Source: an uncultured Candidatus Saccharibacteria bacterium (GTDB lineage Bacteria; Patescibacteriota; Dojkabacteria; J137). Taken from it: a stretch of DNA of 37,973 bases. The notes below the pieces were generated by a model. It was given only the letters and a program-made list of their open reading frames with translations. It made no database searches and had not been told where the DNA came from. Of this stretch, positions 1 through 22,989 are shown piece by piece. Positions within the stretch are counted from its first letter, which is position 1. Each line of letters opens with the position of its first letter. Both the position numbers and the translations under genes were made by a program. The DNA is taken from contig CAYUKX010000001.1 in assembly GCA_964445405.1 (NCBI GenBank), forward strand, positions 1-37,973. Reading direction: 5' to 3'.

Positions 1-85
1 CAATAATAAGATAACTCCCTTATAGGTAGTAATTATCGTTATTATTGTTATTAAACTTTGTGTTCATAGTTTTGTTTTAATTGTT

Positions 86-266
86 GGGGTCAGGTGCAAA
101 GGATCTCCCCGTGCACCCGACCTTTGGTCCATATGTCCTTGGCATCTCGCCTTGGACGGCTTTGTCCCCCTTCTGTACAGGGAGGACCCTCGAAAAGCGC
201 GACAGCTAGTCAGAAAGGACCGATACGGATCGCGCACCCCTGTGCGACCCGTTACCATGTAGGCAC
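86..266 (-). ncRNA. Putative structured ncRNA 3 of tandem array, ~180 nt, family unknown
   Basis: GC-rich island directly downstream of a TTGCGA-17-TATAAT promoter. Minus-strand stems ACGGGUCGC/GCGAUCCGU, GGUCC/GGACC, GUCCUCC/GGGGGAC, GCC-GUCCAA-GGC and terminal hairpin GGUCGGGUGCA/UGCACCUGACC (88-122). Mismatches read as G-U pairs only on the minus strand. Confidence 0.7.
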
Positions 267-270
267 CTGA

Positions 271-299
271 ATTATATGAAGAAATTTTAATATTCGCAA
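271..299 (-). promoter_or_regulatory. Sigma70-type promoter for ncRNA 3
   Basis: Minus strand TTGCGA (299-294), 17-nt spacer, TATAAT (276-271). Confidence 0.8.
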
Positions 300-341
300 C
301 AAAAATTTATTTTTTTAGTAATACTTAGTATGGAATTTAGT

Positions 342-482
342 GACAAGTTGGAGGCTAACACGATTGTGCCGACCTCCAACTCCGCTAGTGTGGCCTAGCG
401 CTAAACATTGCCTACCAGGTAGTCTGCCATAAATGCAGCACCAATAGTTAATGTTACCCCAATGACGAAGTACATGGGGCAC
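342..482 (-). ncRNA. Putative structured ncRNA 2 of tandem array, ~140 nt, family unknown
   Basis: Minus-strand 5' hairpin GCCCCAUG/CAUUGGGGU, nested stem AACAUU/AAUGUU enclosing CUAUUGG/CUGGUAG and CUGC/GCAG, hairpin CGCUAG-GCCACA-CUAGCG (383-400), and a long terminal hairpin at 346-381 with G-U pairs. Confidence 0.7.
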
Positions 483-486
483 AGCA

Positions 487-515
487 ATTATATATATTAA
501 TATTAATTCAGGCAA
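487..515 (-). promoter_or_regulatory. Sigma70-type promoter for ncRNA 2
   Basis: Minus strand TTGCCT (515-510), 17-nt spacer, TATAAT (492-487). Confidence 0.8.
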
Positions 516-574
516 TATATAAAATAGGAATAGAACTAACCTGCTTGAATTTGATTTTATTTTCTGGATTATTT

Positions 575-749
575 GGGTAACTTGGAGATGAGTTTTCGAT
601 CATCTCCAAGTTTGGTGCCTAGGGTTGGGACCCTAGTGCGATGTGCACTCCGTGGTTGCCGGCTTTTATACAAGGGAATTACGGCTTTCGCCTCCCCCGG
701 CAGGAGTGCATTACTCATGAACCTCTGAGGGGTTAGAACAGAGGTATTC
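575..749 (-). ncRNA. Putative structured ncRNA 1 of tandem array, ~175 nt, family unknown
   Basis: Minus-strand 5' hairpin ACCUCUG/CAGAGGU (721-745), nested stems UGCACUCC/GGAGUGCA and UGCCGG/CCGGCA around a GGC-GAAA-GCC GNRA tetraloop, hairpin CUAGGG-UCCCAA-CCCUAG (619-636), terminal hairpin AACUUGGAGAUGA/UCAUCUCCAAGUU (579-612). Confidence 0.72.
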
Positions 750-754
750 CTTGG

Positions 755-783
755 ATTATATGTCCAAAAGTCGTTTTATACAA
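755..783 (-). promoter_or_regulatory. Sigma70-type promoter for ncRNA 1
   Basis: Minus strand TTGTAT (783-778), 17-nt spacer, TATAAT (760-755). Confidence 0.8.
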
Positions 784-5072: not shown

Positions 5073-5194
5073 GCTTAAATTATAGCTTAAGGTCTCAAAT
5101 ATAGAGCATATATACCTAAACACAAAAAAATATAGTATAATTTCACCTGCATTTAGAGTAGTTCAGATTGAACTTTGCAAATTGTATTGACCCT

Positions 5195-5266
5195 TCGGGG
5201 TTCGTCTAATGGTAGGACAGCAGCCTTTGAAGCTGTCGATTGGGGTTCGAGTCCCTGACCCCGAAG
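5195..5266 (+). tRNA. tRNA-Gln(TTG), CCA not encoded
   Basis: Acceptor TCGGGGT/ACCCCGA, D arm GTCTAATGGTAGGAC, anticodon arm GCAGC-CTTTGAA-GCTGT, T arm with GGTTCGAGTCC. Confidence 0.95.
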
Positions 5267-6270: not shown

Positions 6271-9200
6271 TTACATCTCAAACTTTCCTAGAACTTCACT
6301 TGATTTCTTCATTGGGAATTCAATAGTAATTTGTTCTTTCTTTTTTACAGTTATTTTAATCAGAGTTTGACCTATAGAACTTTCTAGTCTATCGTATCTC
6401 TTGCTTAATTTAGCTTTATCTAATTCGTACCCTGCAGCATTTACTTGTAAGTGATAGCTACCTGGTTCTAATGTAAACCCAAATCTACCCTCGGCATCAG
6501 TTAGTAGAACATCTATTTGTCTACCTTGTTTAATATCGAATACTCTTACACTTGCACTCTTAATTCTTTTATAATTTGCGCTGTCGTATACATAACCCCA
6601 TTCACGCTTTCTTGCATTTAAAAGTATTAATACAAGTAACTGTATTAAATAAATACTTGCTACAAAGTAGTTAAAGAAACTTGGAGTTACTACTAGTGCA
6701 ATTGCTGAGATTATAAATCCAATAACAACAATAGAATTATTAATCTTTGGTAAATTCTTCTTTATACTCTCTCTAAATCGCAATAACGCTTCCTTAATTG
6801 TATTTTTCTTAAGTGATAGTTTCTTTAAACCAATGTTTTTTGCAGCAATTCCCTCGTTTTCGCTAATCTCTATTTCAAATTTTTCAAAGTGATAGTCTGA
6901 ATGCTTTGCTTCAAGTGTGTACGTGCCTTTATTAACCAAGAATCCATATTTACCATCAAAGCCTGTAACAATTTGTTTTTGAATCTTACCTACTTCGTCG
7001 TAGATTCGTACTAATACAAATGGAATTGGCTCTTTTGTTGATTCGTCAAAGATTACACCCCATGTACTTTTTCTTCTTTTTTTACCTATCCAAGGTATTG
7101 CATACATTACCATTCCTGGGTAAGTAATAATGTTCAGTGCACCAGTAGCAATTGTTGTAATCGTCAATATTAATGGGACTGTATCTTCAGTTACTTGTAT
7201 TGTAAATGGTTTTTCAGGGTAATAATTAATGTACCTAGAAATTGGAATTACTCCACTTTGTACACATGTTTTTTCGGTGTTTACACAATCTACCTTATAG
7301 TATAAGTCGTTAACACCATCTAAATTAGCCAGTTCAAGAATAGCAGTGTGGTTGGTAATCTTTTGTTTATCTTCATACGAAAAGATCATGCTATCTGAAG
7401 CGTTACCATAGTGTACTTTACAGAAAGATTCACTATCCGTTTGATAGTTTATTACTACTTGGCCATTTGAATTAAATGAATAGTTTTCGAAGTTATTAAT
7501 ACATTGTCTTGGATCACTAACTTGAATTACTTCCCCGTTTAGTGTTGTGAATGAATCATTATAATCATCACTCTTTCCTGCATTAGATGTTGCATGAATA
7601 TTGAATATGTATTGAGTACTCTCATCTAAATTTTCAATTACCTGGCAATGGTTTTCGGCATATTCTGCCTCTACTGGTGTAGCATTTGTATACTCACTAC
7701 CTGCAGCTAGTCCATAACTTATGTTTCCGATAGTAGAAATATTTGTTTCCCAACAGATTCTTTGAGCTGTTAGTCCAATGTTTTCTGTTGTTACATTTGT
7801 AATTTGAACATCTGCAATACAATCAACACTTTCAGGATTATCCTGACAGTTGTTTTCTGGGTTTACAATTATGTTTTGCGATGTTGCATTCAAGTTTGAA
7901 ATATTTTTATCTTGCACCTTAATTGTATAGATTCCTGATTCAGCAAACTTTACGCTATTGGTAAATACTCGTCTACCTGAATCTCCACTTATAAAAGTAT
8001 AGTCACTTGGTAACAAAGCCGATGCAGATGTTGAGGTAAAATTAACAGAACCTCTATACAAAGGATCATTATTATTTTGAGTATTAAATGCATCTACTGT
8101 TAAATCAATCACTTCACCAATTCTTACAACATATTTACTTGGTGTAATTCCTAACGTTTTAGCCGAACTTGTAACTTGTATTGTAATTGTATCTGTTAAA
8201 TCACTATAGATTACATCTCTTACAGTAACGGTAAATGTACCTTCTTTTAAGAATGTAAGTTCATTACTAAATTCATGAACCCCACTATTCGATAGCGTGA
8301 ATTGATAATTGTTTGGTAGTGTTGCGTCAGGAGATGCAGAAGATGTAAATGTAACAGTACCGTTATAGTTAGTTACGATTGCGTTAAGGTCGTCTTTTGC
8401 TCTTACAGTCAATGATAATTGTTCGCCAACATTGGCTTCAATTTTATTTGATTCTAATTCGATTGCAGTTGCTGTTGTAGGTGCAGGTTCTGTAACTGTT
8501 ATTGGAACAGAAGTTGCAGTAATTGAATTATTTATAGTATCTGTTACAGTTACCGTATACGTACCTGCTTGAGTAAATACTAATCCATTTGTGAATAGTT
8601 TTTCTGCGTCATCTAACTCAGTGAATGTGTAGTTGCTTGGCAAAATTGTATTATTGTTGCCTGTTGTTGTAAATGTAACAGTTCCTCTGTAATAAGTGTC
8701 TGGTTGTAATGTATCTGTTAACGCACTAACAATTAATGATATTGGATCACCTGCGGTTACATTTGTTGAGCTTGGAACAATTGATAAGCTATCAATTGAT
8801 GCTTCGACAGTTATTTGTACACTTGTTGCAGTTAATCCACTATCAGCAATATCTGTAACTGTAATTGTGTAAGTACCAACCTGGCTAAACAGAACCGAAT
8901 TATTAAAGTCATGCGAACCATTATCACCGCCTACATAAGTGTAATTACTTGGAATTGTTGCATTTGATCCTGCAGTAGAACCAAATGTAACTGTACCATT
9001 ATAAGAACTAAATATATCTGAATATTGATCTAGAATACTAACGCTTACACTTAGTTGTTCACCTTGCTTAACAGTTGTTTTGCTAGGAGTAATGGTTATA
9101 CTATTTGCATTTGCTGGTGGTAGGTTTACTGTTATCTGTTCTGTGGTTGCAGTTAAACTACCCGCAACTGTATCAGTTACAGTTACGGTATATGTTCCAG

Positions 9201-12200
9201 CCTGCGAGAATGATAATTGATTATTAAATGTAGCTGTACCATTATCAGAACCAGAGAATGTGTAATTACTTGGTAAGTTAGAGTTTGCCGATGGGTTACT
9301 AGTAAATTGTACAGTGCCTCGGTAAGTACCGTCAGTGTTATTAGAGCCATCTTTTGCATTAACAGTTAATGTTATAGTTTCGCCAACTAAAACATTAGTT
9401 TTATTTGTTGTTATTTCTAGACCTGTTGTATTAGACACAATAAAGTCAGCTTGATTACTTGAATTGTTACCAAACTCTGTCCATGATCCTGCTACAGAAG
9501 TATCTTCATTCAAGACTCTAGCTCTCCATTTATATTCTTCTCCTGGTATTAATCCCGATACATTCACCTCTGAGACTAATGGAACGCCACCACTAAATTC
9601 TGTTGTTGGGCTATTATAAACTCCAGCAAATATTGTGTTTTTGTAATCTGGAACAACTTTACCTTTTAATGTATACGCAGCTGTAAAGGATTCATTTAAA
9701 CCTACAACTTCAAATTCTGCTACTAAAGACTGTGGGTTTAGATTATCTGCACCAGGATCACTTACACTTGCTTTTAAGTTAACAGACTGTTCAGGTGTAA
9801 CACCTCCAACAGGAATTGCAGTTTCACCATCTATTTTATATTGATCTTTAAACAGTGGAGTTGACGGAATACTACTAATTGTTGGGAATGTACCAACCTG
9901 ACCACTTTGACCGCCTGCAGAAGTACCATTGGCTACCGTAACTGTTCCCGTAGATTCACAAGGTCCTTGAGTATATAGAATTGAAATTCTTCCACCACCA
10001 CCTCCTCCTCCATCAAATGCATCATCTCCACCTGATCCTCCTTGAGCATTTAATGTTCCGCTAATTGAACATGTTTGACCTTCAATTAATATTGAACCTC
10101 CTGCACCACCTCCTCCGCCTGGTGAAGCAGTCTTTCCATTTTCACCACTAACATCAATTGTACCTCGTATAGTCACATCACCACTTCTTACTCTTAATGC
10201 AACTGCTCCACCTCCAGCGCCTCCGCTTGCACCTGTGCCGGCTTGTCCACCTCCTGAACCTAGTGTAAATGGTGTTCTTTGATTACCATAAAATGTTCCT
10301 CCTTGTGGCGCTGTATTACCACCATCACTTTCGCCCGTACCTCCAGTTCCTCCGTGTCCTCCTCCTGCTCCACCGGATTGACCTGCACCCCTTACACCTC
10401 TTCCAACACCAGTTTCACTTGGGAAGCCTAATGCCTTACCTGTTAGTAATGCATTTGTATCAATTAGTAAATTACCTGTTAAGTTTAAAACAGGACCTCT
10501 ACCCCTTTTATTGTTGTATTCATTCCAAGAATAGGTCCTTTCGTAAATATTAATTTCAGTTGAGCTTAGTGCTCTTGGGTATAAGAAGACTTCATCTATA
10601 AGACCTACAAAACCTGTTGATGACCCCAAGCCTCCTTTACCGATTGATATTTTTGATAGAGGTAGTGAATAGTTTGTACCTAAGTTTAATGAATTAACTT
10701 CTGTACCATTTACATATATTTTTCTTATTCCTGTAGTTGAATCGTATGAAGCTACAACATGTTGCCATTGATTATCAGGTAAGTATGTAGTTGACTCAAA
10801 TACCTGAATCTCAGCTAAATTTAATAGGTTATTGTTTATTTTTGTAACTCTTAAGTATCTAGCATTTGCAGGTGCAAACGAATATTCGCTTGGGAACCCA
10901 ACATTTTGACCTGTTAAATTTACAACCTGACTTTGCTCACCACTAAAACTACCCGTATTCGAAACTTCAATTTTAAAGTCAGTGAATCTATCCTGACAAC
11001 AATCTGATCTATTCCAAATATTTACTTTACTGATGTTTTTTACAGCACCTAAATCAATTTGAATCCAGTCATTTGCACCTACAGTTGCGCCTTGGCATAA
11101 ATTAGAAGTATTACCGTCAACACAATTGGCTGGTGGGTAACTTGGATTATTATTTGCCATGGTAACAGTTTTACCCTGTGATACCAAACCTGTAACCAAT
11201 TTTGATGGCCACTCAAACCTTAGCTGTCTACTACCATCAATATCTAAACTACTTGTAGTAGCAACATTATTAAAGTTAATTAGTTCCTCAGCCTCTGAAC
11301 CGTTTGCTGTAAATTGCGAAAGCTTTGCCCACATACCAACAGTAAAGCTAGTAACAGTTAAGTCACTTACATCAACTTCTGCATAGTTACTTCCATTTAA
11401 TTCTAAAGCGTTACCTACTTTGCCATTTGCATTTCTTGAACTTCCAAAACTATTTAAGCTTCGGTTGTTGCCTGATGCATCACAATAGTCAGCTGCACCA
11501 CTACAAGAATCATCATTTTCTTCTTCAAAATTCCAAATAGCAATTGCATCTCCCAAGTTTTCTACGTTACCACCTTCAGCAACTGTTTCTTCTGATCTTA
11601 AAGCTAGTAAATCTTGTTTTAAATAAGCAGTTACATTTGAACCAATAAAAACATCATCAAGATTGTAATCAATTGCTTCAAAATCCATAGCTCTACCTGC
11701 TAAGCCATTGTTTTCAAGATATAAACTACCTTGACCAGGAGAATTTAAACCTGTATTTTCTATGTAAATTGTACCTGGTCCTGCATCTCTACCTGCATAG
11801 TTATCAGAAGCAGCACCAAAAGCTTGTATATAATTTTTATTATCTGTTTGAAAATCTCCATTGTTTTTATAAATAGCAATTCGTCCACCAGTTCCACCTT
11901 TGCTAGCACCATTTGCTCGTATTAATCCACTTCCATTCAATGTAGCAGCATTAATGTAAACACTTCCTCCCGAACCTCCTGTATTTCTATAATCACCAGT
12001 TGGATTACCATTAGTTGTTATAGTACCGCCAACAGATAAGGTATCAGCGATATTTAATGTAACTGCACCACCTCCAGACGCACTTCCATAATTACCACCA
12101 CTTCCTAAATCGCTTGGCTCTCTAAAGTCGCCGTATGGAACATGATCGCTGCTATATCCTCCATAAACTCCTCCGTAATTACCACCACCTGCTCCACCAG

Positions 12201-15200
12201 GACCCGCATTAGCTCCATATCCTCTTCCGTCTGCATTTATAGAGCCTCCAGAGATAACATTTAAGTTAGTGGAATTAATGGTTACTCCGTAATCATTTTT
12301 ATCTTGTGCATTATTATCCGCAGTTGTTGCTGCACTTCCAACATAAGATTGTAAATACAATATTGAAGCATTCTGAATCGTTAATGAATCAAAGTTATAA
12401 ATATCTTGGTTAGGGAATAAATCTGTTTGTCTTTTTTGAGTTAATGCATATAAGGTAACTCTTGCAGGATTTGTTCCATCGCCAATTGTTAGTGTGTTAG
12501 CTCCTTGCATACTACCTATTACATCAAGGTTTACTCTATCTACTGTAAATGTTGTTGGTAATTGTATTAAACCTTCAGATGAGATACTAGGTGTAGTATT
12601 GTCACCTTCAATTCCCGTTTCGCTATCAATTTGAAGTGTTGAAGCAATTCCATATGCTCTTAAATTTCCGTATTCTTTAAGATATATTTTACCGAATTGT
12701 TGTACTGGATTATTACTGTCGTATGGAATACCTGCGTAATATCCACTTGCCCCATTATTATTTATGTATAAATCACCACTTCCGCCAAGATCTCCATCCT
12801 CATCAATAAAGATTGTTCCTGGTGCATAACCAAAAGATTGAATATTAACTTTTGAGTTTATTGGATAGGTACCTGATTTTTTGTAAACGGCTATTCTACC
12901 ACCACTACTATATCCACCTGATGCATAACCATCTGCACCTGAATTAGCTCTAATTAAACCAGAACCATTAAATGTATCTGTTACTATAAAAATACTTCCA
13001 CCGGAACCACCACCATTTCTATAATCGCCTGTGTCACCACCCTTTGCACTAATTGTTCCATTATTTGTTAGTGTCCCACTTGTTGTTAGTTTAATTGAAC
13101 CTGCACCTGCTCCCCAGTTTCCACCACTACCTAAATCTATAGGTTCTTTTACACTTCCGTATGGAGTATCAGATCCATTAAATCCACCATAACCGCCACC
13201 TGCGGCTGCTCCTGGACCTGCACCAGCAGAATATCCAAAGGAGTCTGCGTTAATATTTCCACCGTTGTCAATTGTAATATTGATTGCATTAAGTTCAACA
13301 CCGTAATCGTTTAGGTTTGCTGAATTATTATCAGTAGTTACTCCACCATTACCAACGTAAGACCTTAAATAGACAATTGCTGAATTTTTAACTGTAAAAT
13401 TATCAAAACTATATAAACTTTGATTTGGATACAAATCATCTTGTCTTTTTTGTGTTCTTGCATATAAAGTTAACCTTGCAGGATTTGTTCCATCCCCGAT
13501 TGTTAAATCACTCGCCCCTTGAATTCCTCCTATTATATCTAGATTTATTCTATCGATAGTAAATGTTGAAGGAAGTTGTAATAAACCTTCGGTTGATATA
13601 CCTGGTGTAGTATTATCACCTTCAATTCCAGTTTCACTACTTACAACCAATGTAGAACTAATGCCATATGCTCTTAAATGACCGTACTCTTTTAAGTAAA
13701 CTTTATTAAACTGTTGTGTTGGAGCATTACTATCGTATGGAATTCCTGCATAATAACCATTAGAGCCATTATTATTTATATATAAATCTCCATTACCACC
13801 TAAATCACCATCTTCATCAATATAGATAGTTCCTGGCGAATACCCAAAGGCTTGAAGGTTTACCTTTGTATTTATTGGATAATCTCCGTTGTGTCTGTAA
13901 ATTGCAATTCTTCCACCTGTACCTATTCTTCCTGTAGGTGTATAGGCGCTTGCTTTAACAACTCCTGAACCATTAAATGTATCTGATATTATCCAAACAC
14001 TACCTCCAGCTCCACCAGAATTTCGATAATCACCAGATCCACCTGAAAGTGAACTTATTATTCCATTATTTGTTAATACTCCAGATACATTTAATTTAAT
14101 TGCACCTCCTCCATACGAAGTTCCATAGTTACCACCACTACCTAAACTTACAGGTTCTTTTACACTTCCGTATGGAGTATTACTACCATTGTATCCACCG
14201 TAGCCTCCACCGTTAGCTCCACCTGCTCCCGGGCCCGCATTTGGACTATATCCTCTACCTTCAGCATTTATGACTCCTCCATTTTCAACTGAAAGTGTTG
14301 TTGCATTAATAGAAACTCCATATTCATTCAAATTATCGACGTTATTATCTGCAGTAGTAGACCCACTGCCGACATAAGATTGTAAATATAAATTTGTATT
14401 ATTCTTTAATGTTAGAGTGTCAAAGTTATACTGATCTTGATTTGGATATAACTCATTTTGTCTTCTTTGAGTACGTGCATAGAATGTTAATTTAGCTGGA
14501 TCTGTACCATTACCTACAGTTAGTGTTTCTGCACCTGAGTAATTTCCTATTATATCTAGATTTACTCTATCTACCGTAAATACCGCTGGCAATTGTAGTA
14601 AGCCTTCAGTTGCAATTGACGGAACAGTTGTGTCACCTATAACACCAGCTTCGTTTGCTATTACAAGTGTAGAATCAATACCATATGCCCTTAAATGACC
14701 ATACTCTTTTAGATAAATAGTATTAAACTCTTGGATTGGATTTAATACATCGTATGGTATTCCTGCATAGTAGCCATTAGAACCATTATTATTTATGTAT
14801 AAATCTCCATTTCCACCAAGATCACCATCTTCATCAATGTAGATTGTTCCCGGAGCATAACCAAATGATTGTAGATTTGTTTTTGAATTCAAAGGATAAG
14901 TACCATCTTTTTTGTAAATTGCTATTCTTCCGCCTGTACTATAACCACCGGAAGCATAACCATTCACACCAGAATTTACCTGCATTAAACCAGCACCATT
15001 TAATGTGTTTGCCACTACCAAAATACTTCCTCCAGAACCTCCACCATTTCTATAATCTCCTGTGTCTCCACCTTTTGAGCTAATTGTTCCGTTATTTGTT
15101 AATGTATTTGTTGCAGTTAACTTGATTGCGCCTGCGCCTGCTCCCCAATTACCACCACTACCTAAACTTACAGGTTCTTTTACACTTCCATATGGAGTAT

Positions 15201-18200
15201 CAGATCCATTAAATCCACCATAACCACCTCCTGCAGCGGCTCCTGGGCCCACATTAGCAGAGTAGCCTCTTGAATCTGCATTAATAAATCCACCTGAATC
15301 AACCGTAATATTTTCAGATGTTAAATCCACACCATAATCGTTTAGATTTGCAGCATTGTTATCTGTAATTACTCCCGCATTCCCTACATAAGATTGAAGA
15401 TACAAATACGATGTATTCTTAACATTAAGTGTTGTAAATGTGTATTTATCTTGGTTTGGATACAGATCATTTTGCCTTTTTTGATTTCTGGCATACAGTG
15501 TTACCCTTGCAGGATTTGTTCCGTCGCCGATAGTCAGATTATTTGCTCCTTGAATGTTTCCAATAACATCTAAATTTACTCTATCTACTGTAAATGTTGT
15601 TGGCAGTTGAATTGACCCTTCTGGAGATAGACTTGGAGTAGAATTATCACCTTCAATTCCAGTTTCGCTACTTATAACTAAAGTTGAATTAATTCCGTAA
15701 ATTTTAAGATGACCATATTCTTTAAGATAGATTTTATTAAACTGTTGTGTAGGATTATTCGCGTCGTAAGGAACACCAGCTGCATAACCATTAGAGCCGT
15801 TATTATTTGCATACAAATCTCCATTTCCACCTAGATTACCATCTTCGTCTATATATATTGTTCCTGGCGATCTACCAAAAGATTGTATATTAGCCTTATT
15901 GTTAATTGGATAGCTACCAGAATGTCTATAGATTGCTATTCTACCTCCAGTACTATAACCACCAGATGCATAACCATTTGTACCACCATTAGTTCTTATC
16001 AATCCATTTCCATCAAGTACATCGGTAACTATAAATATACTTCCACCTGCACCTCCTCCATATCTGTAATCTCCTGTGTCACCTCCATTTGCACTTATGA
16101 TTCCGTTATTAGTAATGGTACCAATAACATCTAATTTTAATGCTCCAGCACCTGCTCCCCAGTTACCACCACTACCTAAACTTATTGGTTCTTTTACACT
16201 TCCGTATGGTGTGTCTGAACCATTAAATCCACCATAGCCACCACCAACTGCTGCACCTGGTCCAGTATTTCCTGTGTAACCTCTTGAATCAGCATTTATA
16301 ATCCCTGTAGGTTCAACTACAATATTTTGGGCAAGTACCACTACACTTATTTCATTATCGTAATTTGAATCACTAACTATGTAGCTAGCAAGAACTAATG
16401 TAGAACCACTCTTAATTCTAACTTCACTTACATTTGTACAATCAAAAATACCATGATTATTTGTGTCAGCTGCCCAAGTTTGATTAGTATCAATTATCCC
16501 GTCAACATCTGGACACGAACCAAGCGATGTAACTATCGCAATTATATTTGAAGTTCCAATTGCAGAGCCGTCTGTGACTTTTATTCTTACACTTGCCTGA
16601 GTATCAAATGTTAATGTGATTGATTTAACACCCAAGTCGCCAGATTGGAATTGATAACTAGTTGGATCAAGAACACCTGATACAACTGTATTTATATTAT
16701 CGGGATTAACTGCACTTAAACTTGGATTACCTATGTAGTCAGTTTTAATATTACTGTACTGATCGTAAGCTGTAATGTTTACTGTAAACGCTTCGTTTAT
16801 TAAAGAATACGAAGAGGTTGAAACACCAAAGCTCGCAACTAAATCAGGTGTACTAACAAAATCAAAAGTAATCGGACTATCTACCAATCCAGAGCCTATT
16901 GCTCTTACCTGATTATTAATGCTTTTTGTGCCTAATGTATAGTATCTAGAGCTATAACCATCATCGTCGGTAATTGCATTTCCACCGGAAAATCTACCAC
17001 CAACACCGCCGTTACTTATGGACCAATTAACTGTATAACCTGGGACTGGGAATCCGACGCTATCTACTACTCTAATTACTAATGGATCAACAATTTGAGT
17101 ATTCACTATTCCTGTCTGATTATTCCCGCTAATATATTGAATATTTGCTGGTGTACCTGTTACTAATACATCCCTGTCGGTTTCAAGATTATTGCCATAA
17201 CTAACCCAGTAACTATACCCACCTTTGTTATCTCTAACTCTTGCCCTCCAGTGATATTCTTTAGATCTTGTAATACTGCTTACTGTTATTTTTCCGCAAT
17301 CTGCAACAGGTGTGTTACAACTTTGGGGATTAGCAATATTTGATGATTGTGTATGTGTTGGAACACCTGTAAAGTCTTGCCCTAGCTCTCTAAATTCAAT
17401 CTGTAGCGATAACGTATCGGATGCATCTACATCGATTAAATTACTTGCAAAAACTACTGTAGTTTCTGTTGTAATGCCATTTACAAAGATTTCATTTGTT
17501 TGATTTGATTTAAATTGTTTTAATACGGTAGGTGCATTTGGCCTACATGTTGGACCTATAATTGTACCAATACCTCCATCTTGTGAGCTGCCAGTAATGC
17601 CTGGTGCAACACTCGCTGTCCCGTTAAAGGTGTTACTTGCTGTACAAAGTACAACAACTCTTCCACCTCCACCACCTCCACCTTGGTACTGAACATCTGC
17701 AGCAGATCCACCTCTCGCTTCAATTAAACCAGATCCAGACAAGCTATCTGCTTCTATCCATACGCTACCTCCAGCTCCACCTCCACCTGAGGTTGCACCT
17801 GATGCCTGACCATCTAATCCATTTGCAGATATCTTTCCATTAACCACAACAGATCCAGTTGCAGTAATTCGAATCGCGCCTCCACCAGCACCACCGAATG
17901 AACTACCTGCTTGTAAAGAAGTTCCTGATACTTGAATAGAGTTTATTTTTGGAGTATCAGTAACATCAATGCCTGTATCAATGTAAGCCTTTATTCTATA
18001 GTAAGTATAATAAGATGTAATGCTTGCAGATAGATCTAATGGCATAGAATCTTGTATTGGATATTCACCACCAGACTGATAATAATTATCTACAGCTGGG
18101 AAAGTTGTTTGCTCGCCAGTAAATTCACCTGTAAGTGAGGCTTCAATTTGAAATTTAGGATTAATGTTATCTGTACCATCTAATTCCCAATCTGCTACTA

Positions 18201-20247
18201 TACTAGATAAATTTAATGATCCAAGACTGGTTGCATCGATAGTCTCTGAAGTCCAGGACTGTTCTCCGCTGGTGTACTCTGTAGGTGGAATATAGTTATA
18301 AATTTGCTGAACTTCTGCCTGTGATAAATCCCTATTATATAATCTAAAATCATCTATCAATCCATTGAAGCCCCAAATGTAACCGTTATAACCTGTATTC
18401 CCGATTGTAAGATCTGATTCGCTGTTCGGTAGACCACCTGTTGTACTCCTAAAATCATTTATTAATAGCTCTCCATTTAAATACACTTTCATAGCATTAT
18501 TTTCGTAAACTGCTACCAAATGCACCCATTCGTTTGTTGGCAACCCACTTGCAGTTCGCTCTGATTCTAGAATATCAAAAGCTACACCACCACTTCCGAA
18601 AGCGTAAAAAACGTATTCCCCATTTTCGTGCCTTGCAATCATATCGTAGTTAGATGTGCTGTTTGCATATACCCATGTAGAAATTGAGACTGTATCATTA
18701 ATGCCAACTTGGTGAATGTCGGGAACTGTCACATAGTTATTTGTGCCATTAACCGAAAGCGCTCTACCAAATTTTCCTGCTTCTGTTGTGTTTATATCGT
18801 TACCTGGCGTTGCATTTTTTGCACTTAAGCTTGAATCTATTACCTGACCAGGAGTATTACTATAACTAGCTTCATCAAACTTATAATATGCAACAAGTCC
18901 GTTGTTTACATTACTGCCTGTAGTATTATCTGTAAGTACAATTTGATCATTATCGTTTGCCTTAGTACCAGTTAAAACTGTTCCATTAGCCGTAAATTCA
19001 TCTTTTGAGTCCCAAGTTTTAGAATATAGATCAGAAGTTCCCGCACCACTTCCCCCAGCACCACCAAGAGTATGTGGAGATTCAATACTGCCATAAACAC
19101 TTCCTCCAAAACCTGAAGGGTTACTTACATCTTCAATACCTTGACCTCCTGCACCTCCATGTCCACCTCCTGCACCTCCAGTTTGTCCTGCAGAGTTGCC
19201 ACCTTGACCAATTGATTCTGTTTCAATAACTTGATAACCATTTCCATCGGCAGTTATTTTGCCTCCATTTTGAACTGTAAGATTATTTACCAATAAAGTA
19301 ACACCCCAATCACCATCTGTAGATGAGTTCTCTGTTACATATCTATCAATAATAATTTCTCCTGTTGGGCCAACAATAATATCTAAAGATGCACAATCAA
19401 TAATTCCATCTATGTTATCTGGTGTAAGAGTTACTTGATTATTTATTACAGAGGGTGATGATGGCAACGGACAAGAAGTTTGTGCGACCAGCTGTCTTAT
19501 ATTGTAGTTTAATACTGCAAAGCCACTAGCAACAAACACACCAAGTTGGAATAAGAATAATATTAAACCTACTATTAACGTTGTAATGGTTGGGTAATAC
19601 CTTACTCTATAGAAAGTTAAATCCTTACTACTTTGTGGATTAGCTTCTTTTACTTTGCCTCCGCCAAAAATATATAGAAATGTTAATAAAAAGCTTAAGT
19701 AAATTTGATTAAAAAGCCATTTAATCCAACTAATACTATTTAAAATAAAATTAGATCGCTTTTGAATCTTGTGCATTAAAACATCACAGTGATTACTTAC
19801 TTTTAAAACTTTCTTAATAATTTTGTTTTGAATACTTGTTCTATATGTTGGTATAACTTCAACACTAAATGTATACGATAAATAACTAATAAAATTATCT
19901 ACAAAGTTATTATCGTTTTTATTTAGGATAACGATTGCTGGGTCATTTAATTGAGGTAGATTTTCATCTTCGTGAATCAAAATAATTCGCCTTTTCTTAC
20001 CGAAGCCTTCTTTATCTTTTATTGATTGTACTAATTCAGCGCCTGCAAACTCTGGCAGTGTAGAATCGACAACTAACAAATCTGGATTATATAATTCTAT
20101 TAAGCCTAAACCTTTAATCCCATTATCTGAAGTGATTATAGAGATATCATTAAAGGCTTGAGTTAGTAGTTTTTTTATTGATTCTCTTATTGTGAAATCA
20201 TCATCTACTATCAAGACTTTTATTTGATTTTCTTTTTTTGAAGACAT
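6271..20247 (-). CDS. Giant (4658 aa) surface protein: N-terminal receiver domain, TM segments, LamG domains, Gly-rich repeats, F5/8C/F-type lectin, Ig-like and FN3 repeats, C-terminal TMs with two carboxypeptidase-regulatory-like domains
   Basis: Uninterrupted 14-kb ORF; VLIVDD...PDLLVVD-x-x-LP; LamG W-x-H-x-V-x-x-Y...GLID; RSDCCQDR; repeated Y-x-GTV-x-F...LP-x-x-Y-x-F; WG-x-x-x-D...VRI...T-x-x-x-G-x-YGF. Confidence 0.85.
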   Translation of the reverse strand: MSSKKENQIKVLIVDDDFTIRESIKKLLTQAFNDISIITSDNGIKGLGLIELYNPDLLVVDSTLPEFAGAELVQSIKDKEGFGKKRRIILIHEDENLPQLNDPAIVILNKNDNNFVDNFISYLSYTFSVEVIPTYRTSIQNKIIKKVLKVSNHCDVLMHKIQKRSNFILNSISWIKWLFNQIYLSFLLTFLYIFGGGKVKEANPQSSKDLTFYRVRYYPTITTLIVGLILFLFQLGVFVASGFAVLNYNIRQLVAQTSCPLPSSPSVINNQVTLTPDNIDGIIDCASLDIIVGPTGEIIIDRYVTENSSTDGDWGVTLLVNNLTVQNGGKITADGNGYQVIETESIGQGGNSAGQTGGAGGGHGGAGGQGIEDVSNPSGFGGSVYGSIESPHTLGGAGGSGAGTSDLYSKTWDSKDEFTANGTVLTGTKANDNDQIVLTDNTTGSNVNNGLVAYYKFDEASYSNTPGQVIDSSLSAKNATPGNDINTTEAGKFGRALSVNGTNNYVTVPDIHQVGINDTVSISTWVYANSTSNYDMIARHENGEYVFYAFGSGGVAFDILESERTASGLPTNEWVHLVAVYENNAMKVYLNGELLINDFRSTTGGLPNSESDLTIGNTGYNGYIWGFNGLIDDFRLYNRDLSQAEVQQIYNYIPPTEYTSGEQSWTSETIDATSLGSLNLSSIVADWELDGTDNINPKFQIEASLTGEFTGEQTTFPAVDNYYQSGGEYPIQDSMPLDLSASITSYYTYYRIKAYIDTGIDVTDTPKINSIQVSGTSLQAGSSFGGAGGGAIRITATGSVVVNGKISANGLDGQASGATSGGGGAGGSVWIEADSLSGSGLIEARGGSAADVQYQGGGGGGGRVVVLCTASNTFNGTASVAPGITGSSQDGGIGTIIGPTCRPNAPTVLKQFKSNQTNEIFVNGITTETTVVFASNLIDVDASDTLSLQIEFRELGQDFTGVPTHTQSSNIANPQSCNTPVADCGKITVSSITRSKEYHWRARVRDNKGGYSYWVSYGNNLETDRDVLVTGTPANIQYISGNNQTGIVNTQIVDPLVIRVVDSVGFPVPGYTVNWSISNGGVGGRFSGGNAITDDDGYSSRYYTLGTKSINNQVRAIGSGLVDSPITFDFVSTPDLVASFGVSTSSYSLINEAFTVNITAYDQYSNIKTDYIGNPSLSAVNPDNINTVVSGVLDPTSYQFQSGDLGVKSITLTFDTQASVRIKVTDGSAIGTSNIIAIVTSLGSCPDVDGIIDTNQTWAADTNNHGIFDCTNVSEVRIKSGSTLVLASYIVSDSNYDNEISVVVLAQNIVVEPTGIINADSRGYTGNTGPGAAVGGGYGGFNGSDTPYGSVKEPISLGSGGNWGAGAGALKLDVIGTITNNGIISANGGDTGDYRYGGGAGGSIFIVTDVLDGNGLIRTNGGTNGYASGGYSTGGRIAIYRHSGSYPINNKANIQSFGRSPGTIYIDEDGNLGGNGDLYANNNGSNGYAAGVPYDANNPTQQFNKIYLKEYGHLKIYGINSTLVISSETGIEGDNSTPSLSPEGSIQLPTTFTVDRVNLDVIGNIQGANNLTIGDGTNPARVTLYARNQKRQNDLYPNQDKYTFTTLNVKNTSYLYLQSYVGNAGVITDNNAANLNDYGVDLTSENITVDSGGFINADSRGYSANVGPGAAAGGGYGGFNGSDTPYGSVKEPVSLGSGGNWGAGAGAIKLTATNTLTNNGTISSKGGDTGDYRNGGGSGGSILVVANTLNGAGLMQVNSGVNGYASGGYSTGGRIAIYKKDGTYPLNSKTNLQSFGYAPGTIYIDEDGDLGGNGDLYINNNGSNGYYAGIPYDVLNPIQEFNTIYLKEYGHLRAYGIDSTLVIANEAGVIGDTTVPSIATEGLLQLPAVFTVDRVNLDIIGNYSGAETLTVGNGTDPAKLTFYARTQRRQNELYPNQDQYNFDTLTLKNNTNLYLQSYVGSGSTTADNNVDNLNEYGVSINATTLSVENGGVINAEGRGYSPNAGPGAGGANGGGYGGYNGSNTPYGSVKEPVSLGSGGNYGTSYGGGAIKLNVSGVLTNNGIISSLSGGSGDYRNSGGAGGSVWIISDTFNGSGVVKASAYTPTGRIGTGGRIAIYRHNGDYPINTKVNLQAFGYSPGTIYIDEDGDLGGNGDLYINNNGSNGYYAGIPYDSNAPTQQFNKVYLKEYGHLRAYGISSTLVVSSETGIEGDNTTPGISTEGLLQLPSTFTIDRINLDIIGGIQGASDLTIGDGTNPARLTLYARTQKRQDDLYPNQSLYSFDNFTVKNSAIVYLRSYVGNGGVTTDNNSANLNDYGVELNAINITIDNGGNINADSFGYSAGAGPGAAAGGGYGGFNGSDTPYGSVKEPIDLGSGGNWGAGAGSIKLTTSGTLTNNGTISAKGGDTGDYRNGGGSGGSIFIVTDTFNGSGLIRANSGADGYASGGYSSGGRIAVYKKSGTYPINSKVNIQSFGYAPGTIFIDEDGDLGGSGDLYINNNGASGYYAGIPYDSNNPVQQFGKIYLKEYGNLRAYGIASTLQIDSETGIEGDNTTPSISSEGLIQLPTTFTVDRVNLDVIGSMQGANTLTIGDGTNPARVTLYALTQKRQTDLFPNQDIYNFDSLTIQNASILYLQSYVGSAATTADNNAQDKNDYGVTINSTNLNVISGGSINADGRGYGANAGPGGAGGGNYGGVYGGYSSDHVPYGDFREPSDLGSGGNYGSASGGGAVTLNIADTLSVGGTITTNGNPTGDYRNTGGSGGSVYINAATLNGSGLIRANGASKGGTGGRIAIYKNNGDFQTDNKNYIQAFGAASDNYAGRDAGPGTIYIENTGLNSPGQGSLYLENNGLAGRAMDFEAIDYNLDDVFIGSNVTAYLKQDLLALRSEETVAEGGNVENLGDAIAIWNFEEENDDSCSGAADYCDASGNNRSLNSFGSSRNANGKVGNALELNGSNYAEVDVSDLTVTSFTVGMWAKLSQFTANGSEAEELINFNNVATTSSLDIDGSRQLRFEWPSKLVTGLVSQGKTVTMANNNPSYPPANCVDGNTSNLCQGATVGANDWIQIDLGAVKNISKVNIWNRSDCCQDRFTDFKIEVSNTGSFSGEQSQVVNLTGQNVGFPSEYSFAPANARYLRVTKINNNLLNLAEIQVFESTTYLPDNQWQHVVASYDSTTGIRKIYVNGTEVNSLNLGTNYSLPLSKISIGKGGLGSSTGFVGLIDEVFLYPRALSSTEINIYERTYSWNEYNNKRGRGPVLNLTGNLLIDTNALLTGKALGFPSETGVGRGVRGAGQSGGAGGGHGGTGGTGESDGGNTAPQGGTFYGNQRTPFTLGSGGGQAGTGASGGAGGGAVALRVRSGDVTIRGTIDVSGENGKTASPGGGGGAGGSILIEGQTCSISGTLNAQGGSGGDDAFDGGGGGGGRISILYTQGPCESTGTVTVANGTSAGGQSGQVGTFPTISSIPSTPLFKDQYKIDGETAIPVGGVTPEQSVNLKASVSDPGADNLNPQSLVAEFEVVGLNESFTAAYTLKGKVVPDYKNTIFAGVYNSPTTEFSGGVPLVSEVNVSGLIPGEEYKWRARVLNEDTSVAGSWTEFGNNSSNQADFIVSNTTGLEITTNKTNVLVGETITLTVNAKDGSNNTDGTYRGTVQFTSNPSANSNLPSNYTFSGSDNGTATFNNQLSFSQAGTYTVTVTDTVAGSLTATTEQITVNLPPANANSITITPSKTTVKQGEQLSVSVSILDQYSDIFSSYNGTVTFGSTAGSNATIPSNYTYVGGDNGSHDFNNSVLFSQVGTYTITVTDIADSGLTATSVQITVEASIDSLSIVPSSTNVTAGDPISLIVSALTDTLQPDTYYRGTVTFTTTGNNNTILPSNYTFTELDDAEKLFTNGLVFTQAGTYTVTVTDTINNSITATSVPITVTEPAPTTATAIELESNKIEANVGEQLSLTVRAKDDLNAIVTNYNGTVTFTSSASPDATLPNNYQFTLSNSGVHEFSNELTFLKEGTFTVTVRDVIYSDLTDTITIQVTSSAKTLGITPSKYVVRIGEVIDLTVDAFNTQNNNDPLYRGSVNFTSTSASALLPSDYTFISGDSGRRVFTNSVKFAESGIYTIKVQDKNISNLNATSQNIIVNPENNCQDNPESVDCIADVQITNVTTENIGLTAQRICWETNISTIGNISYGLAAGSEYTNATPVEAEYAENHCQVIENLDESTQYIFNIHATSNAGKSDDYNDSFTTLNGEVIQVSDPRQCINNFENYSFNSNGQVVINYQTDSESFCKVHYGNASDSMIFSYEDKQKITNHTAILELANLDGVNDLYYKVDCVNTEKTCVQSGVIPISRYINYYPEKPFTIQVTEDTVPLILTITTIATGALNIITYPGMVMYAIPWIGKKRRKSTWGVIFDESTKEPIPFVLVRIYDEVGKIQKQIVTGFDGKYGFLVNKGTYTLEAKHSDYHFEKFEIEISENEGIAAKNIGLKKLSLKKNTIKEALLRFRESIKKNLPKINNSIVVIGFIISAIALVVTPSFFNYFVASIYLIQLLVLILLNARKREWGYVYDSANYKRIKSASVRVFDIKQGRQIDVLLTDAEGRFGFTLEPGSYHLQVNAAGYELDKAKLSKRYDRLESSIGQTLIKITVKKKEQITIEFPMKKSSEVLGKFEM
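11700..16400 (-). repeat. Intragenic tandem repeat, ~1015-nt (~340-aa) unit, about 4.5 copies
   Basis: TACACTTCC(G/A)TATGG (YGSV) recurs at 16195, 15181, 14161 and 13150, with a divergent copy near 12130; spacings 1014, 1020, 1011 and 1026 nt. Confidence 0.9.
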
Positions 20248-22618: not shown

Positions 22619-22703
22619 AATACGTAATAAAAGATATTCATACTATATTAAACAATAATACGTTAATCGTAAAATGGTAGTAAATTATTCGTAAAGATTG
22701 CTC

Positions 22704-22731
22704 TTGAAAATTTAAGTTGGTGATTTATAAT
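22704..22731 (+). promoter_or_regulatory. Sigma70-type promoter
   Basis: TTGAAA (22704-22709), 16-nt spacer, TATAAT (22726-22731). Confidence 0.65.
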
Positions 22732-22734
22732 CGT

Positions 22735-22925
22735 GTTGATAGACACAAAGTCTGTCTTCAACGGATAAAAGAAAGGACGCCCAATATGAAAAATCAAAAT
22801 TTCAACTTCCTTGCTTCCCAGCAGGGAGGGGGTGATCCAATTCGAGTCGCCTGATGAAAGTCAGACGCTGTTAGGCCTAATCCACCTAACCAGGGGTGAG
22901 GGGGCGCAATGCCCACTCACCTTTT
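22735..22925 (+). ncRNA. Putative ~190-nt structured small RNA, possibly dual-function with a 22-codon ORF (22786-22854)
   Basis: GC-rich, lies between a promoter and a terminator, has successive hairpins (GUUGA..UCAAC, CUUCCUUGCU/AGCAGGGAGG, CUGA/UCAG, GUUAGG/CCUAAC), and AGAAAGGA sits 8 nt before an ATG. Confidence 0.55.
22893..22925 (+). terminator. Intrinsic terminator-like hairpin
   Basis: GGTGAG-GGGGC-GCAAT-GCCC-A-CTCACC followed by TTTT. Confidence 0.6.
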
Positions 22926-22989
22926 GAGTTACTTCAGATTATTCAAGATTCAGATTTACCAAAATAAACTTTAATACTATCATCTGATT

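What the first reader, a model, noticed from the sequence alone, without database searches (positions are those of the whole stretch)
86..783. Array of three independently promoted, highly structured non-coding RNAs of unknown family
Seen: three GC-rich islands (86-266, 342-482, 575-749) in AT-rich DNA. Each begins about 5-7 nt after its own minus-strand promoter with exact 17-nt spacing (TTGTAT, TTGCCT or TTGCGA, then TATAAT). Each folds into several stems and ends in a ~35-nt hairpin. G-U pairs and a GAAA tetraloop give the same strand as the promoters. I see no tRNA, tmRNA, RNase P, SRP, group II intron or CRISPR hallmarks, and no credible protein is encoded. Inference: a cassette of sequence-divergent small RNAs (guide, scaffold, decoy or ribozyme) whose partner protein may lie just left of the window. 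This is the best candidate here for an undescribed system.
Basis: partly seen in the sequence, partly recalled or inferred. Interest (0 to 1): 0.88.

Follow-up and report, generated by a model that had tools for sequence, protein, structure and literature searches.

The report
Three orphan RNAs heading tRNA-Asn operon
Three small, tightly folded non-coding RNAs, each with its own promoter, sit in a row in an ultra-small (Dojkabacteria-type) bacterium; the last one is kept in sister species and runs straight into an asparagine-sensing switch for the tRNA-Asn and AsnRS genes, but none belongs to a known RNA family and no partner protein lies beside them.

Summary
Three G+C-rich islands lie on the minus strand: R1 575-755, R2 338-486, R3 80-270. 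Each sits behind an exact TTGNNN-N17-TATAAT promoter and folds far better than shuffles. None matches Rfam, on either strand.

R2 and R3 are non-coding: their open frames are not kept in orthologues. R3 has positional orthologues in 3 of 3 same-genus genomes, in one metagenome contig and in one co-occurring strain. Its hairpins are kept through pair-preserving changes. R2 recurs in 1 of 3 sister genomes. R1 is unique.

The partner-protein idea fails. Contig C107 overlaps the window's left end by 55 bases. It carries an Asn-codon leader peptide, a classic attenuator, tRNA-Asn and AsnRS.

R3 ends 20 nt before that leader peptide, with no U-tract terminator and no conserved promoter between. I read it as the structured 5' leader of an Asn-attenuated operon. 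I read R1 and R2 as younger units of similar build feeding the same transcript. Their function is unproven.

The family is genus-restricted and evolves fast. This scan has noted G+C-rich promoter-driven cassettes in Dojkabacteria before, but sequence look-ups found no look-alike of these RNAs. Interest is moderate.

The parts
755..783 (-). P1 promoter: TTGTAT, 17 nt, TATAAT
   Evidence: One of 46 exact TTGNNN-N17-TATAAT sites in the genome. Not listed by the generic scan.
575..754 (-). R1, about 175-180 nt, four hairpins: H1 745-721, H2 710-644 (GAAA tetraloop), H3 639-617, H4 612-579. No orthologue found. Holds a 49-aa frame (718-569).
   Evidence: fold, z -7.3; no similar DNA; the frame has no relatives
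487..515 (-). P2 promoter: TTGCCT, 17 nt, TATAAT
338..486 (-). R2, about 140 nt, four hairpins: H1 481-455, H2 454-405, H3 400-383, H4 382-345. Orthologue in G003 (L037:4766-4935, minus strand).
   Evidence: fold, z -4.6; G003 RNA has the same four-hairpin plan, z -6.3; similarity z 9.4; no frame of 15 aa or more in the G003 copy
271..299 (-). P3 promoter: TTGCGA, 17 nt, TATAAT. An exact TTGC(G/A)(A/T)-N17-TATAAT stands before all 5 sequences read.
88..270 (-). R3, about 180 nt: 5' hairpin 252-225, variable middle, then a conserved 3' module of hairpin b (187-164), hairpin c (157-135; 2x2 purine internal loop, GAGAU loop) and hairpin d (122-88)
   Evidence: fold, z -3.9; orthologues in G001, G002, G003, L081 share b-c-d; strain variant: 6 of 7 stem changes keep the pair; hairpin-c motif only in this genus
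68..87 (-). A-rich single-stranded tail between hairpin d and the leader AUG (CCCCAACAAUUAAAACAAAACU). A UUAAA(A/G) core is kept in all orthologues. No U-tract.
   Evidence: no terminator-like site here
20..67 (-). Asn-codon leader peptide MNTKFNNNNNDNYYL plus stop
   Evidence: kept in 4 of 4 species
1..19 (-). Start of attenuator segment 2 (GGGAGUUAUCUUAUUAUUG). The rest (antiterminator/terminator, tRNA-Asn, AsnRS) is on contig C107.

Best explanation
Window 1-783 (minus strand) is the long, modular head of an asparagine-attenuated tRNA-Asn/asnS operon. It is not a guide-RNA cassette.

Shown:
- Three consensus promoters each drive a G+C-rich, multi-hairpin RNA.
- R2 and R3 are non-coding.
- R3 is kept at this position throughout the genus. 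Its 3' module (hairpins b, c and d plus an A-rich tail) is preserved by pair-keeping substitutions.
- R3 ends 20 nt upstream of a 15-codon leader peptide with an NNNNNDN run. A 1:2 / 2:3 / 3:4 attenuator with a U7 terminator follows, then tRNA-Asn and AsnRS.

Inferred:
- R3's terminal hairpin has no U-tract and no conserved promoter follows it. Transcripts from P3 therefore run into the leader peptide, so R3 is that transcript's 5' leader. Transcripts from P1 and P2 probably read through as well.
- I think R3 works in cis. Its self-contained, very stable hairpins keep about 200 nt of untranslated RNA folded. That would leave the RNA a poor substrate for Rho (rho is present) and for nucleases, and unable to pair with the attenuator segments. 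It would also leave the A-rich tail open as the ribosome landing site in a genome whose ordinary genes reportedly lack Shine-Dalgarno sites (earlier scan note, not checked here).
- Hairpin c is the only sequence-conserved element. It is a candidate protein-binding site that could add a second input to the switch.
- R1 and R2 are younger, strain- or species-specific units of similar build (promoter plus four hairpins) that add transcription input or give extra stable RNAs.
For: - Islands, promoters and folds.
- No known family.
- Non-coding: the frames in R3 orthologues differ in start, peptide and reading frame across hairpin c. The G003 copy of R2 has no frame of 15 aa or more. G001 and L081 differ by indels that are not multiples of 3.
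- Orthologues at the same site in 3 of 3 genus genomes, plus L081.
- Shared b-c-d-tail module.
- Sequence similarity z: 12.3 (G000/G003), 6.8 (G003/G001), 4.5 (G000/G001), 3.4 (G001/G002).
- Co-occurring strain in run X4, 20 substitutions inside R3: 7 keep a pair (one U-A to G-C double change), 8 are unpaired, 5 break MFE pairs. In the four robust hairpins 6 of 7 stem changes keep pairing. The seventh lost its partner to a deletion. Hairpin c is unchanged.
- Left neighbour: 55-nt exact overlap of C1 with C107; same gene order in G001 and G003, and in G002 as far as tRNA-Asn.
- Attenuator: with a ribosome stalled on the Asn run, the 2:3 antiterminator forms in 4 of 4 species (-13.7 to -15.9 kcal/mol). 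Without a ribosome, 1:2 forms in 3 of 4. Weak Phe_leader resemblance, 24.9-27 bits against a cut-off of 55.
- No terminator-like site at the 3' hairpin of any of the three RNAs.
- Rho found in 5 of 5 genomes searched.
Against: - There are no RNA data. None of the 5 runs that hold the stretch is an RNA run, so co-transcription, 5' ends and 3' ends are all inferred.
- In G002 a TTGCAT-N17-TAAAAT motif lies inside hairpin d, so a second start site is possible there.
- Other G+C-rich cassettes of this genome also end in hairpins without U-tracts. Such hairpins may therefore terminate or set 3' ends in this organism, which would make R1-R3 discrete RNAs.
- AsnRS genes of other genera (G004, G019, G007, G010) have no G+C-rich RNA upstream (their regulation was not studied), so R3 is not tied to asnS outside this genus.
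- R3 varies from about 175 to 290 nt within one genus. This fits loose constraint.
- G001's RNA folds only modestly better than shuffles (z -2.3; 1 of 200 shuffles as good).
- R1 has no comparative support, and its fold does not favour the minus strand.
Confidence: 0.45

Rival explanations
1. R1, R2 and R3 are three free-standing small RNA genes that act in trans, as base-pairing regulators or as protein-binding or protein-sequestering RNAs. Their position before the Asn attenuator is incidental.
For: - Each has its own consensus promoter and a long terminal hairpin.
- Other cassettes in the genome also end in hairpins without U-tracts.
- The R2/G003 pair conserves the sequence of stems H2 and H4, as a protein site would.
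- The R2 region varies between co-occurring strains.
Against: - No U-tailed terminator.
- No conserved single-stranded seed: the conserved parts are stems.
- The three RNAs share no sequence, unlike known sibling sRNAs.
- The leader peptide has no conserved promoter of its own, so at least P3 transcripts must read on.
Confidence: 0.25
2. They are fast-turnover G+C-rich cassettes (promoter plus hairpins) of the kind scattered through Dojkabacteria genomes, gained and lost at a hot spot next to tRNA-Asn. They have little or no function for the cell, being selfish or decaying mini-genes.
For: - The genome holds other G+C-rich islands with a promoter-like motif. In six I read a promoter, an SD, a small ORF and a hairpin without a U-tract.
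- R1 is present in 1 of 4 species and R2 in 2 of 4.
- Strain contigs diverge or break off upstream of P3.
- Earlier scan notes describe such islands.
Against: - R3 is kept in all genus members.
- Stem changes preserve pairing and hairpin c is invariant.
- Promoters are exact consensus in 5 of 5 sequences read.
- No flanking direct repeats beyond chance-level 10-30-nt matches.
Confidence: 0.12
3. R1 (and perhaps the others) is a small-protein gene like the neighbouring G+C-rich mini-genes. R1 would encode a 49-aa basic peptide (718-569).
For: - ATG preceded by AGAGG.
- Other cassettes of this genome encode small ORFs of 27-71 aa, two of them basic peptides (27 and 49 aa).
Against: - The SD-ATG gap is only 3 nt, and the SD is paired in H1.
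- The frame runs through hairpins H3 and H4 (window coordinates). In the other cassettes whose ORF I read through (C19, C45, C57, C22, C21) the stop codon comes before the hairpin.
- No paralogue in the genome and no relative among 5.8 billion protein clusters.
- Frames in R2 and R3 are not conserved.
Confidence: 0.08
4. One reading: guide, scaffold or decoy RNAs (or ribozymes) serving an effector gene beside the array.
For: Only the general look of the array: several structured RNAs in a row.
Against: - Both flanks are housekeeping genes: a YbaK-type tRNA-editing protein on the right and the Asn leader, tRNA-Asn and AsnRS on the left.
- TROVE found in 0 of 5 genomes.
- No ribozyme or other Rfam hit at E up to 10.
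- No repeats or spacers.
Confidence: 0.02

Closest known systems
Ribosome-mediated attenuation leaders (trpL, hisL, and pheM before pheST in E. coli; recalled from textbook knowledge; Rfam Phe_leader RF01859)
   Same: A short ORF rich in the codon of the controlled amino acid. Overlapping 1:2, 2:3 and 3:4 hairpins. A U-tract terminator. A cognate aminoacyl-tRNA synthetase downstream. Weak RF01859 resemblance.
   Different: About 180-290 nt of G+C-rich structured RNA (R3) precedes the leader peptide, where the classic cases have a short leader. The operon starts with the tRNA-Asn gene. The organism is a CPR bacterium. One search found no paper on an Asn leader peptide before asnS (listing only).
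Orphan structured-RNA candidates from G+C-rich intergenic regions (GC-IGR/DIMPL pipeline: PMC11109978, passages read; PMC6429828 and PMC8723152, search listing only)
   Same: Found as G+C-rich islands in an A+T-rich genome, structured, with no known function. With 5 sequences read they would rank as a 'low-ranking candidate' by that paper's definition.
   Different: Each unit has an exact consensus promoter, and the units stand in tandem. That paper does not mention CPR or Patescibacteria (0 occurrences). Its supplementary motif lists could not be seen.
Tandem sibling sRNAs (such as Listeria LhrC1-5, Pseudomonas PrrF1/2; recalled, not tested)
   Same: Several separately promoted small RNAs in a head-to-tail row.
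   Different: Siblings share sequence and seed regions and end in U-tailed terminators. R1, R2 and R3 share no detectable sequence and have no U-tails.
G+C-rich autonomous mini-gene cassettes of Dojkabacteria ('moron'-like; earlier notes e1-859714, e1-3799600, e1-3799601)
   Same: A strong promoter, high G+C in a 33% G+C genome, and a terminal G+C-rich hairpin without a U-tract.
   Different: Those carry a GGAGG-type SD and a small ORF that stops before the hairpin. R2 and R3 have no conserved ORF.
T-box leaders of aminoacyl-tRNA synthetase genes (Rfam RF00230)
   Same: A long structured leader upstream of an aaRS gene and a tRNA-related gene.
   Different: No hit to any Rfam family, T-box included, at E up to 10 or 5. 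I saw no T-box sequence. The terminator choice is made by a translated leader peptide.

Membership tests
Known housekeeping or Rfam RNA families (tmRNA, RNase P, SRP RNA, 6S, riboswitches, ribozymes) | A match to the family covariance model at or near its gathering score | tested here: not met
   Gathering scan of the window finds tRNA-Gln only. At E up to 10 on 1-1000 there are five chance-level hits of 8.7-19.9 bits against cut-offs of 35-72. Nothing falls on the orthologous RNAs. RNase P RNA is on C90. tmRNA is elsewhere in 5 of 5 relatives.
Ribosome-mediated attenuator (applies to window 1-67 plus C107, the element R3 leads into) | A short ORF enriched in the regulatory codon, directly before alternative hairpins | tested here: met
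   A 15-16-codon ORF with NNNNNDN or NNNNDNN in 4 of 4 species.
Ribosome-mediated attenuator | Mutually exclusive antiterminator and U-tract terminator, chosen by ribosome position | tested here: met
   The 2:3 antiterminator forms with a stalled ribosome in 4 of 4. The 1:2 hairpin forms without a ribosome in 3 of 4. The terminator is followed by U6-7. This is folding only, not an experiment.
Guide or partner-dependent RNAs (omega RNA of TnpB/IscB, retron msr-msd, Y RNA with Ro60) | The RNA is encoded next to its partner gene | tested here: not met
   The neighbours are a YbaK-type editing protein and the leader, tRNA-Asn and AsnRS. TROVE is in 0 of 5 genomes. RT, TnpB and IscB were not searched genome-wide.
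Hfq-type trans-acting sRNA | An intrinsic terminator with a U-tail and a conserved single-stranded seed | tested here: not met
   No terminator-like site at the 3' hairpins. The conserved parts are stems. Presence of Hfq was not tested.
Dojkabacteria G+C-rich mini-gene cassette | Own promoter and a terminal G+C hairpin without a U-tract | tested here: met
Dojkabacteria G+C-rich mini-gene cassette | A Shine-Dalgarno site plus a small ORF that ends before the hairpin | tested here: not met
   R2 and R3 have no conserved frame. R1 is inconclusive: a 49-aa frame with AGAGG that runs through H3 and H4.
Type I toxin mRNA (raised by R2's 24-aa hydrophobic frame MYFVIGVTLTIGAAFMADYLVGNV) | A conserved small hydrophobic ORF | tested here: not met
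   The G003 orthologue has no frame of 15 aa or more.
T-box riboswitch | A T-box sequence or antiterminator bulge and a Stem I specifier, as scored by RF00230 | tested here: not met
   No RF00230 hit at E up to 10 or up to 5 in four orthologous loci.

The most novel reading that the evidence does not exclude
R3's invariant hairpin c is a new cis-regulatory RNA element that binds a protein such as AsnRS, giving the Asn attenuator a second input. More broadly, R1-R3 would be RNA-only members of a fast-evolving class of autonomous G+C-rich expression cassettes seen so far only in Dojkabacteria. That class would sit on a continuum with the small-protein mini-genes and serve the symbiont's dealings with its host or its phages.
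Probability: 0.12. Interest if true: 0.7.

Novelty: new member of a known kind. Interest (0 to 1): 0.35.

Why it matters
Very little is known about RNA-level regulation in CPR/Patescibacteria.

This locus gives a concrete, testable case. It has a textbook-style Asn-codon attenuator in front of tRNA-Asn and asnS, preceded by an unusually long, G+C-rich, structure-conserved leader and two extra promoter-RNA units.

It also shows that the 'G+C-rich island behind a perfect promoter' pattern in Dojkabacteria includes RNA-only units as well as small-protein genes.

It is not a new defence or guide-RNA system, so it should not be ranked as one.

Tried and rejected
- **Rfam.** Gathering and E-value scans of the window and of four orthologous loci gave nothing on the RNAs.
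- **ARAGORN.** No tmRNA in the window or the genome.
- **BLASTN.** The 741-nt region against 60 relatives gave only short matches at E 7.5e-4 or weaker. The G003 hit (E 0.0014) later proved to cover R2's H4 and the spacer with P3; the G001 hit (E 0.002) lies just before that genome's YbaK gene.
- **Paralogues.** None in the own genome by blastn or nhmmer.
- **Housekeeping RNAs.** SRP RNA, 6S and tmRNA were considered as identities for R1-R3 and rejected.
- **H4 motif.** The pattern TTGGAG...CTCCAASTT across 201 class genomes gave 35 genomes with hits, about as many as the backwards control. I inspected 4 hairpin-like hits and none resembled R1 or R2.
- **Covariance models.** Abandoned, because MAFFT misaligned the hairpins. 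Structure conservation therefore rests on per-sequence folds and on the strain variant.
- **Expression.** No RNA holder is listed among the 5 runs, so expression could not be checked.
- **R1's 49-aa frame.** No relative found.
- **Earlier findings by sequence.** No look-alikes.
- **Integron attC.** The terminal hairpins do not fit the R''/R' consensus as I recall it. This was checked by eye only.
- **Target-site duplications.** Direct repeats around the cassettes gave only short, chance-level families.
- **Common origin of R1, R2 and R3.** No significant similarity.
- **Papers.** None found on Dojkabacteria non-coding RNAs or on Asn leader peptides before asnS (listings only). Supplementary tables of the GC-IGR papers could not be read and might list similar candidates.
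Full report
**What is in the sequence**

The window is the first 37,973 bases of contig C1 of a 1.04-Mb, 114-contig, 33% G+C genome that is 85% complete. Public records of sister genomes are titled Candidatus Dojkabacteria, or Patescibacteria group.

Three islands stand out from A+T-rich spacers: 575-755 (52% G+C), 338-486 (50%) and 80-270 (58%).

On the minus strand each island lies directly behind an exact TTGNNN-N17-TATAAT promoter:
- P1 at 783-755
- P2 at 515-487
- P3 at 299-271

That exact motif occurs only 46 times on both strands of the whole genome, and three of those are here. The generic promoter scan is less impressed. It finds 4 sites in 1-1400 against 4.9 +/- 2.1 in shuffles, and it lists P2 and P3 but not P1.

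The RNAs fold much better than dinucleotide shuffles, with z of -7.3, -4.6 and -3.9 and 0 of 200 shuffles as good in each case. Each ends in a 34-38-nt hairpin. G-U pairs favour the minus sense for R2 and R3, but not for R1.

**Not a known RNA**

- ARAGORN and Rfam find only tRNA-Gln at 5194-5266 in the window.
- A permissive Rfam scan of 1-1000 gives five chance-level hits.
- The same scan on four orthologous loci finds nothing on the RNAs.
- RNase P RNA is on another contig.
- tmRNA is elsewhere in 5 of 5 relatives.

**Homologues come from synteny, not from BLAST**

BLASTN against 60 relatives gave only short, weak hits. The neighbouring YbaK-type editing gene (815-1303) has orthologues in 23 of 27 family genomes.

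In all 3 same-genus genomes, G+C-rich islands lie between that gene and tRNA-Asn:
- G003 has two RNAs. One is an orthologue of R2 (similarity z 9.4) and one is an orthologue of R3 (z 12.3).
- G001 and G002 each have one longer RNA of 278-299 nt (the cut used, which includes the A-rich tail). G001's shares the 5' start and the 3' part with R3 (z 4.5 with G000, 6.8 with G003); G002's is tied in by position, by z 3.4 with G001 and by the shared 3' module, having no detectable similarity to G000 or G003.
- A metagenome scan added one strain-level relative of G001, locus L081.
- Contigs of a co-occurring strain in run X4 gave a sixth R3 variant.

R1 has no relative anywhere. R1, R2 and R3 share no detectable sequence with each other.

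**Non-coding**

The longest frames in the R3 orthologues are 64, 52, 54 and 44 aa. They differ in start codon and in peptide. Read by hand from those sequences, they cross hairpin c in three different reading frames.

G001 and L081 differ by indels that are not multiples of three. The G003 copy of R2 has no frame of 15 aa or more, so R2's 24-aa hydrophobic frame is not conserved.

R1's 49-aa frame has an AGAGG only 3 nt from the ATG, and that AGAGG is paired in H1. The frame runs through H3 and H4 and has no relatives. It is probably fortuitous, but this is not proven.

**Structure is conserved while sequence is not**

R2 and its G003 orthologue both form four hairpins. H1 and H3 have unrelated sequences. 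The outer stem of H2 is replaced. The inner stem of H2 and the stem of H4 are kept.

All five R3 sequences share a 3' module:
- hairpin b
- an A-rich linker
- hairpin c, which is 3+3 bp around a 2x2 purine loop with a GAGA(U) loop, and is the only sequence-conserved element
- hairpin d, which is 10-14 bp and has a different sequence in each species
- an A-rich tail

In the X4 strain there are 20 substitutions inside R3:
- 7 keep a pair, including one U-A to G-C double change
- 8 are unpaired
- 5 break MFE pairs, mostly in the poorly supported middle region

Within the four robust hairpins, 6 of 7 stem changes keep pairing. The seventh lost its partner to a deletion. Hairpin c is untouched.

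The hairpin-c motif occurs in 3 of 201 class genomes, all in this genus and counting G000, with no control hits. Formal covariation statistics could not be run, because MAFFT misaligned the hairpins.

**What lies to the left**

Contig C107 overlaps the reverse complement of window 1-55 exactly. It continues with the rest of an attenuator, tRNA-Asn (GTT), a 58-aa Cys-rich ORF and AsnRS. G001 and G003 have the same order. G002 keeps the RNA, the leader and tRNA-Asn, but its AsnRS lies about 11 kb away.

Window 67-20 (minus strand) encodes MNTKFNNNNNDNYYL. The other species have NNNNNDN or NNNNDNN runs.

Folding gives the classic scheme:
- The Asn codons (segment 1) pair with segment 2.
- When a ribosome is stalled on the Asn run, segment 2 (GGGAGUU...) pairs with segment 3 (...AACUCCC) in 4 of 4 species.
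- Otherwise segments 3 and 4 form a terminator followed by U6-7.
- Rfam's Phe_leader gives a weak echo at 25-27 bits, against a cut-off of 55.

No RT, TnpB/IscB, IS110 or Ro60 gene was seen in the flanks I read. TROVE was found in 0 of 5 genomes.

**Interpretation**

R3's last hairpin is followed 20-35 nt later by the leader AUG, with no U-tract. No promoter is conserved in between. Only G002 has a TTGCAT-N17-TAAAAT motif there.

P3 is an exact consensus promoter in all 5 sequences read. So P3 is most simply the promoter of the attenuated operon, and R3 is its 5' leader.

I propose that R3 acts in cis:
- It locks a long untranslated leader into self-contained hairpins. This protects it from Rho, which is present in 5 of 5 genomes searched, and from nucleases, and keeps it away from the attenuator segments.
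- It presents an open A-rich landing site for the ribosome.
- Hairpin c may be a protein site.

R1 and R2 would be younger add-on units that read through into the same transcript.

The main rival is that all three are discrete trans-acting or protein-binding sRNAs. Hairpins without U-tracts also end the genome's small-protein cassettes, which favours that reading. No RNA run is available to decide.

AsnRS genes of other genera have no such RNA upstream. Together with the size range of about 175-290 nt, this argues for a loosely constrained, genus-specific element rather than a conserved sensor.

**Context and novelty**

Earlier notes of this scan describe G+C-rich promoter-driven mini-genes in this genome and in another Dojkabacteria genome. 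I saw several myself. R2 and R3 show that RNA-only units exist beside them.

By the criteria quoted from PMC11109978, this would be a low-ranking candidate, with five or fewer unique representatives. I file it as a new member of a known kind: orphan structured leader or small RNAs. Interest is moderate. The guide-RNA or new-system reading is not supported.

Noticed in passing
window 1-67 (minus strand) plus G000 contig C107:1-1730: A ribosome-mediated attenuator. An Asn-codon leader peptide (MNTKFNNNNNDNYYL) is followed by 1:2 / 2:3 / 3:4 hairpins and a U7 terminator, in front of tRNA-Asn(GTT), a 58-aa Cys-rich ORF and AsnRS. The leader and attenuator are kept in 4 of 4 genus genomes. One search found no paper on such an asnS/tRNA-Asn attenuator.
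   Followed up: yes
whole genomes G000-G004, G008 and 81 genomes of the class: The SRP pathway was not found. The Ffh M domain (PF02978) is in 0 of 5 and 0 of 81 genomes. The SRP54-type GTPase domain (PF00448, Ffh and FtsY) is in 0 of 4. Small SRP RNA was found in 0 of the 6 genomes searched and large SRP RNA in 0 of 5. The same searches ring in 14 of 14 control genomes for the two protein domains and in 10-13 of 14 for the two RNA models. In G000 no single frame carries both of two recalled GTPase motifs. If real, a whole CPR class lacks SRP. I did not find this in print (listing only).
   Followed up: partly
G000 contig C45:1-174 (minus strand): A second Asn-rich mini-ORF (MRNFSNNNSNNARMIVTNNN) lies behind a promoter-like motif and a GGAGG site, followed by a G+C-rich structured stretch that runs to the contig end. 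It may be another Asn-responsive leader.
   Followed up: no
window 22700-22950 (+ strand): Another promoter-driven G+C-rich unit: a 22-aa mini-ORF (MKNQNFNFLASQQGGGDPIRVA), then hairpins and a U-tailed terminator, just upstream of an AraC-HTH/methyltransferase (Ada-like) gene at 22990.
   Followed up: no
G000 contigs C19:11144-11398, C45:256-472, C57:3562-3719, C22:3302-3495, C21:7935-8195, C24:11483-11740: Stand-alone G+C-rich mini-genes: a consensus-like promoter, a GGAG/GGAGG SD, a small ORF (27-71 aa where I read it through; basic or membrane peptides) and a G+C hairpin that mostly lacks a U-tract (C19's and C24's are followed by short U runs). They match the earlier notes e1-3799600 and e1-3799601.
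   Followed up: partly
window 237-430, contigs of runs X2 and X4: Co-occurring strains differ sharply here. One contig follows R3 and then becomes unrelated upstream of P3, at 311. Another carries a diverged R2 region: 72 nt of the same length but diverged sequence at 311-384. This is a hot spot of turnover.
   Followed up: partly
G000 contig C21:14454-14645 (minus strand): Another island with a promoter-like motif (TTGAAT-N18-TATAAT) and only a 28-aa frame. It is a candidate further non-coding RNA.
   Followed up: no
window 6271-26423: Gene content nearby: a 4658-aa ORF (6271-20247, not analysed), a Ku plus LigD pair (20331-22618, end-joining repair), and a heliorhodopsin (24741-25511).
   Followed up: no
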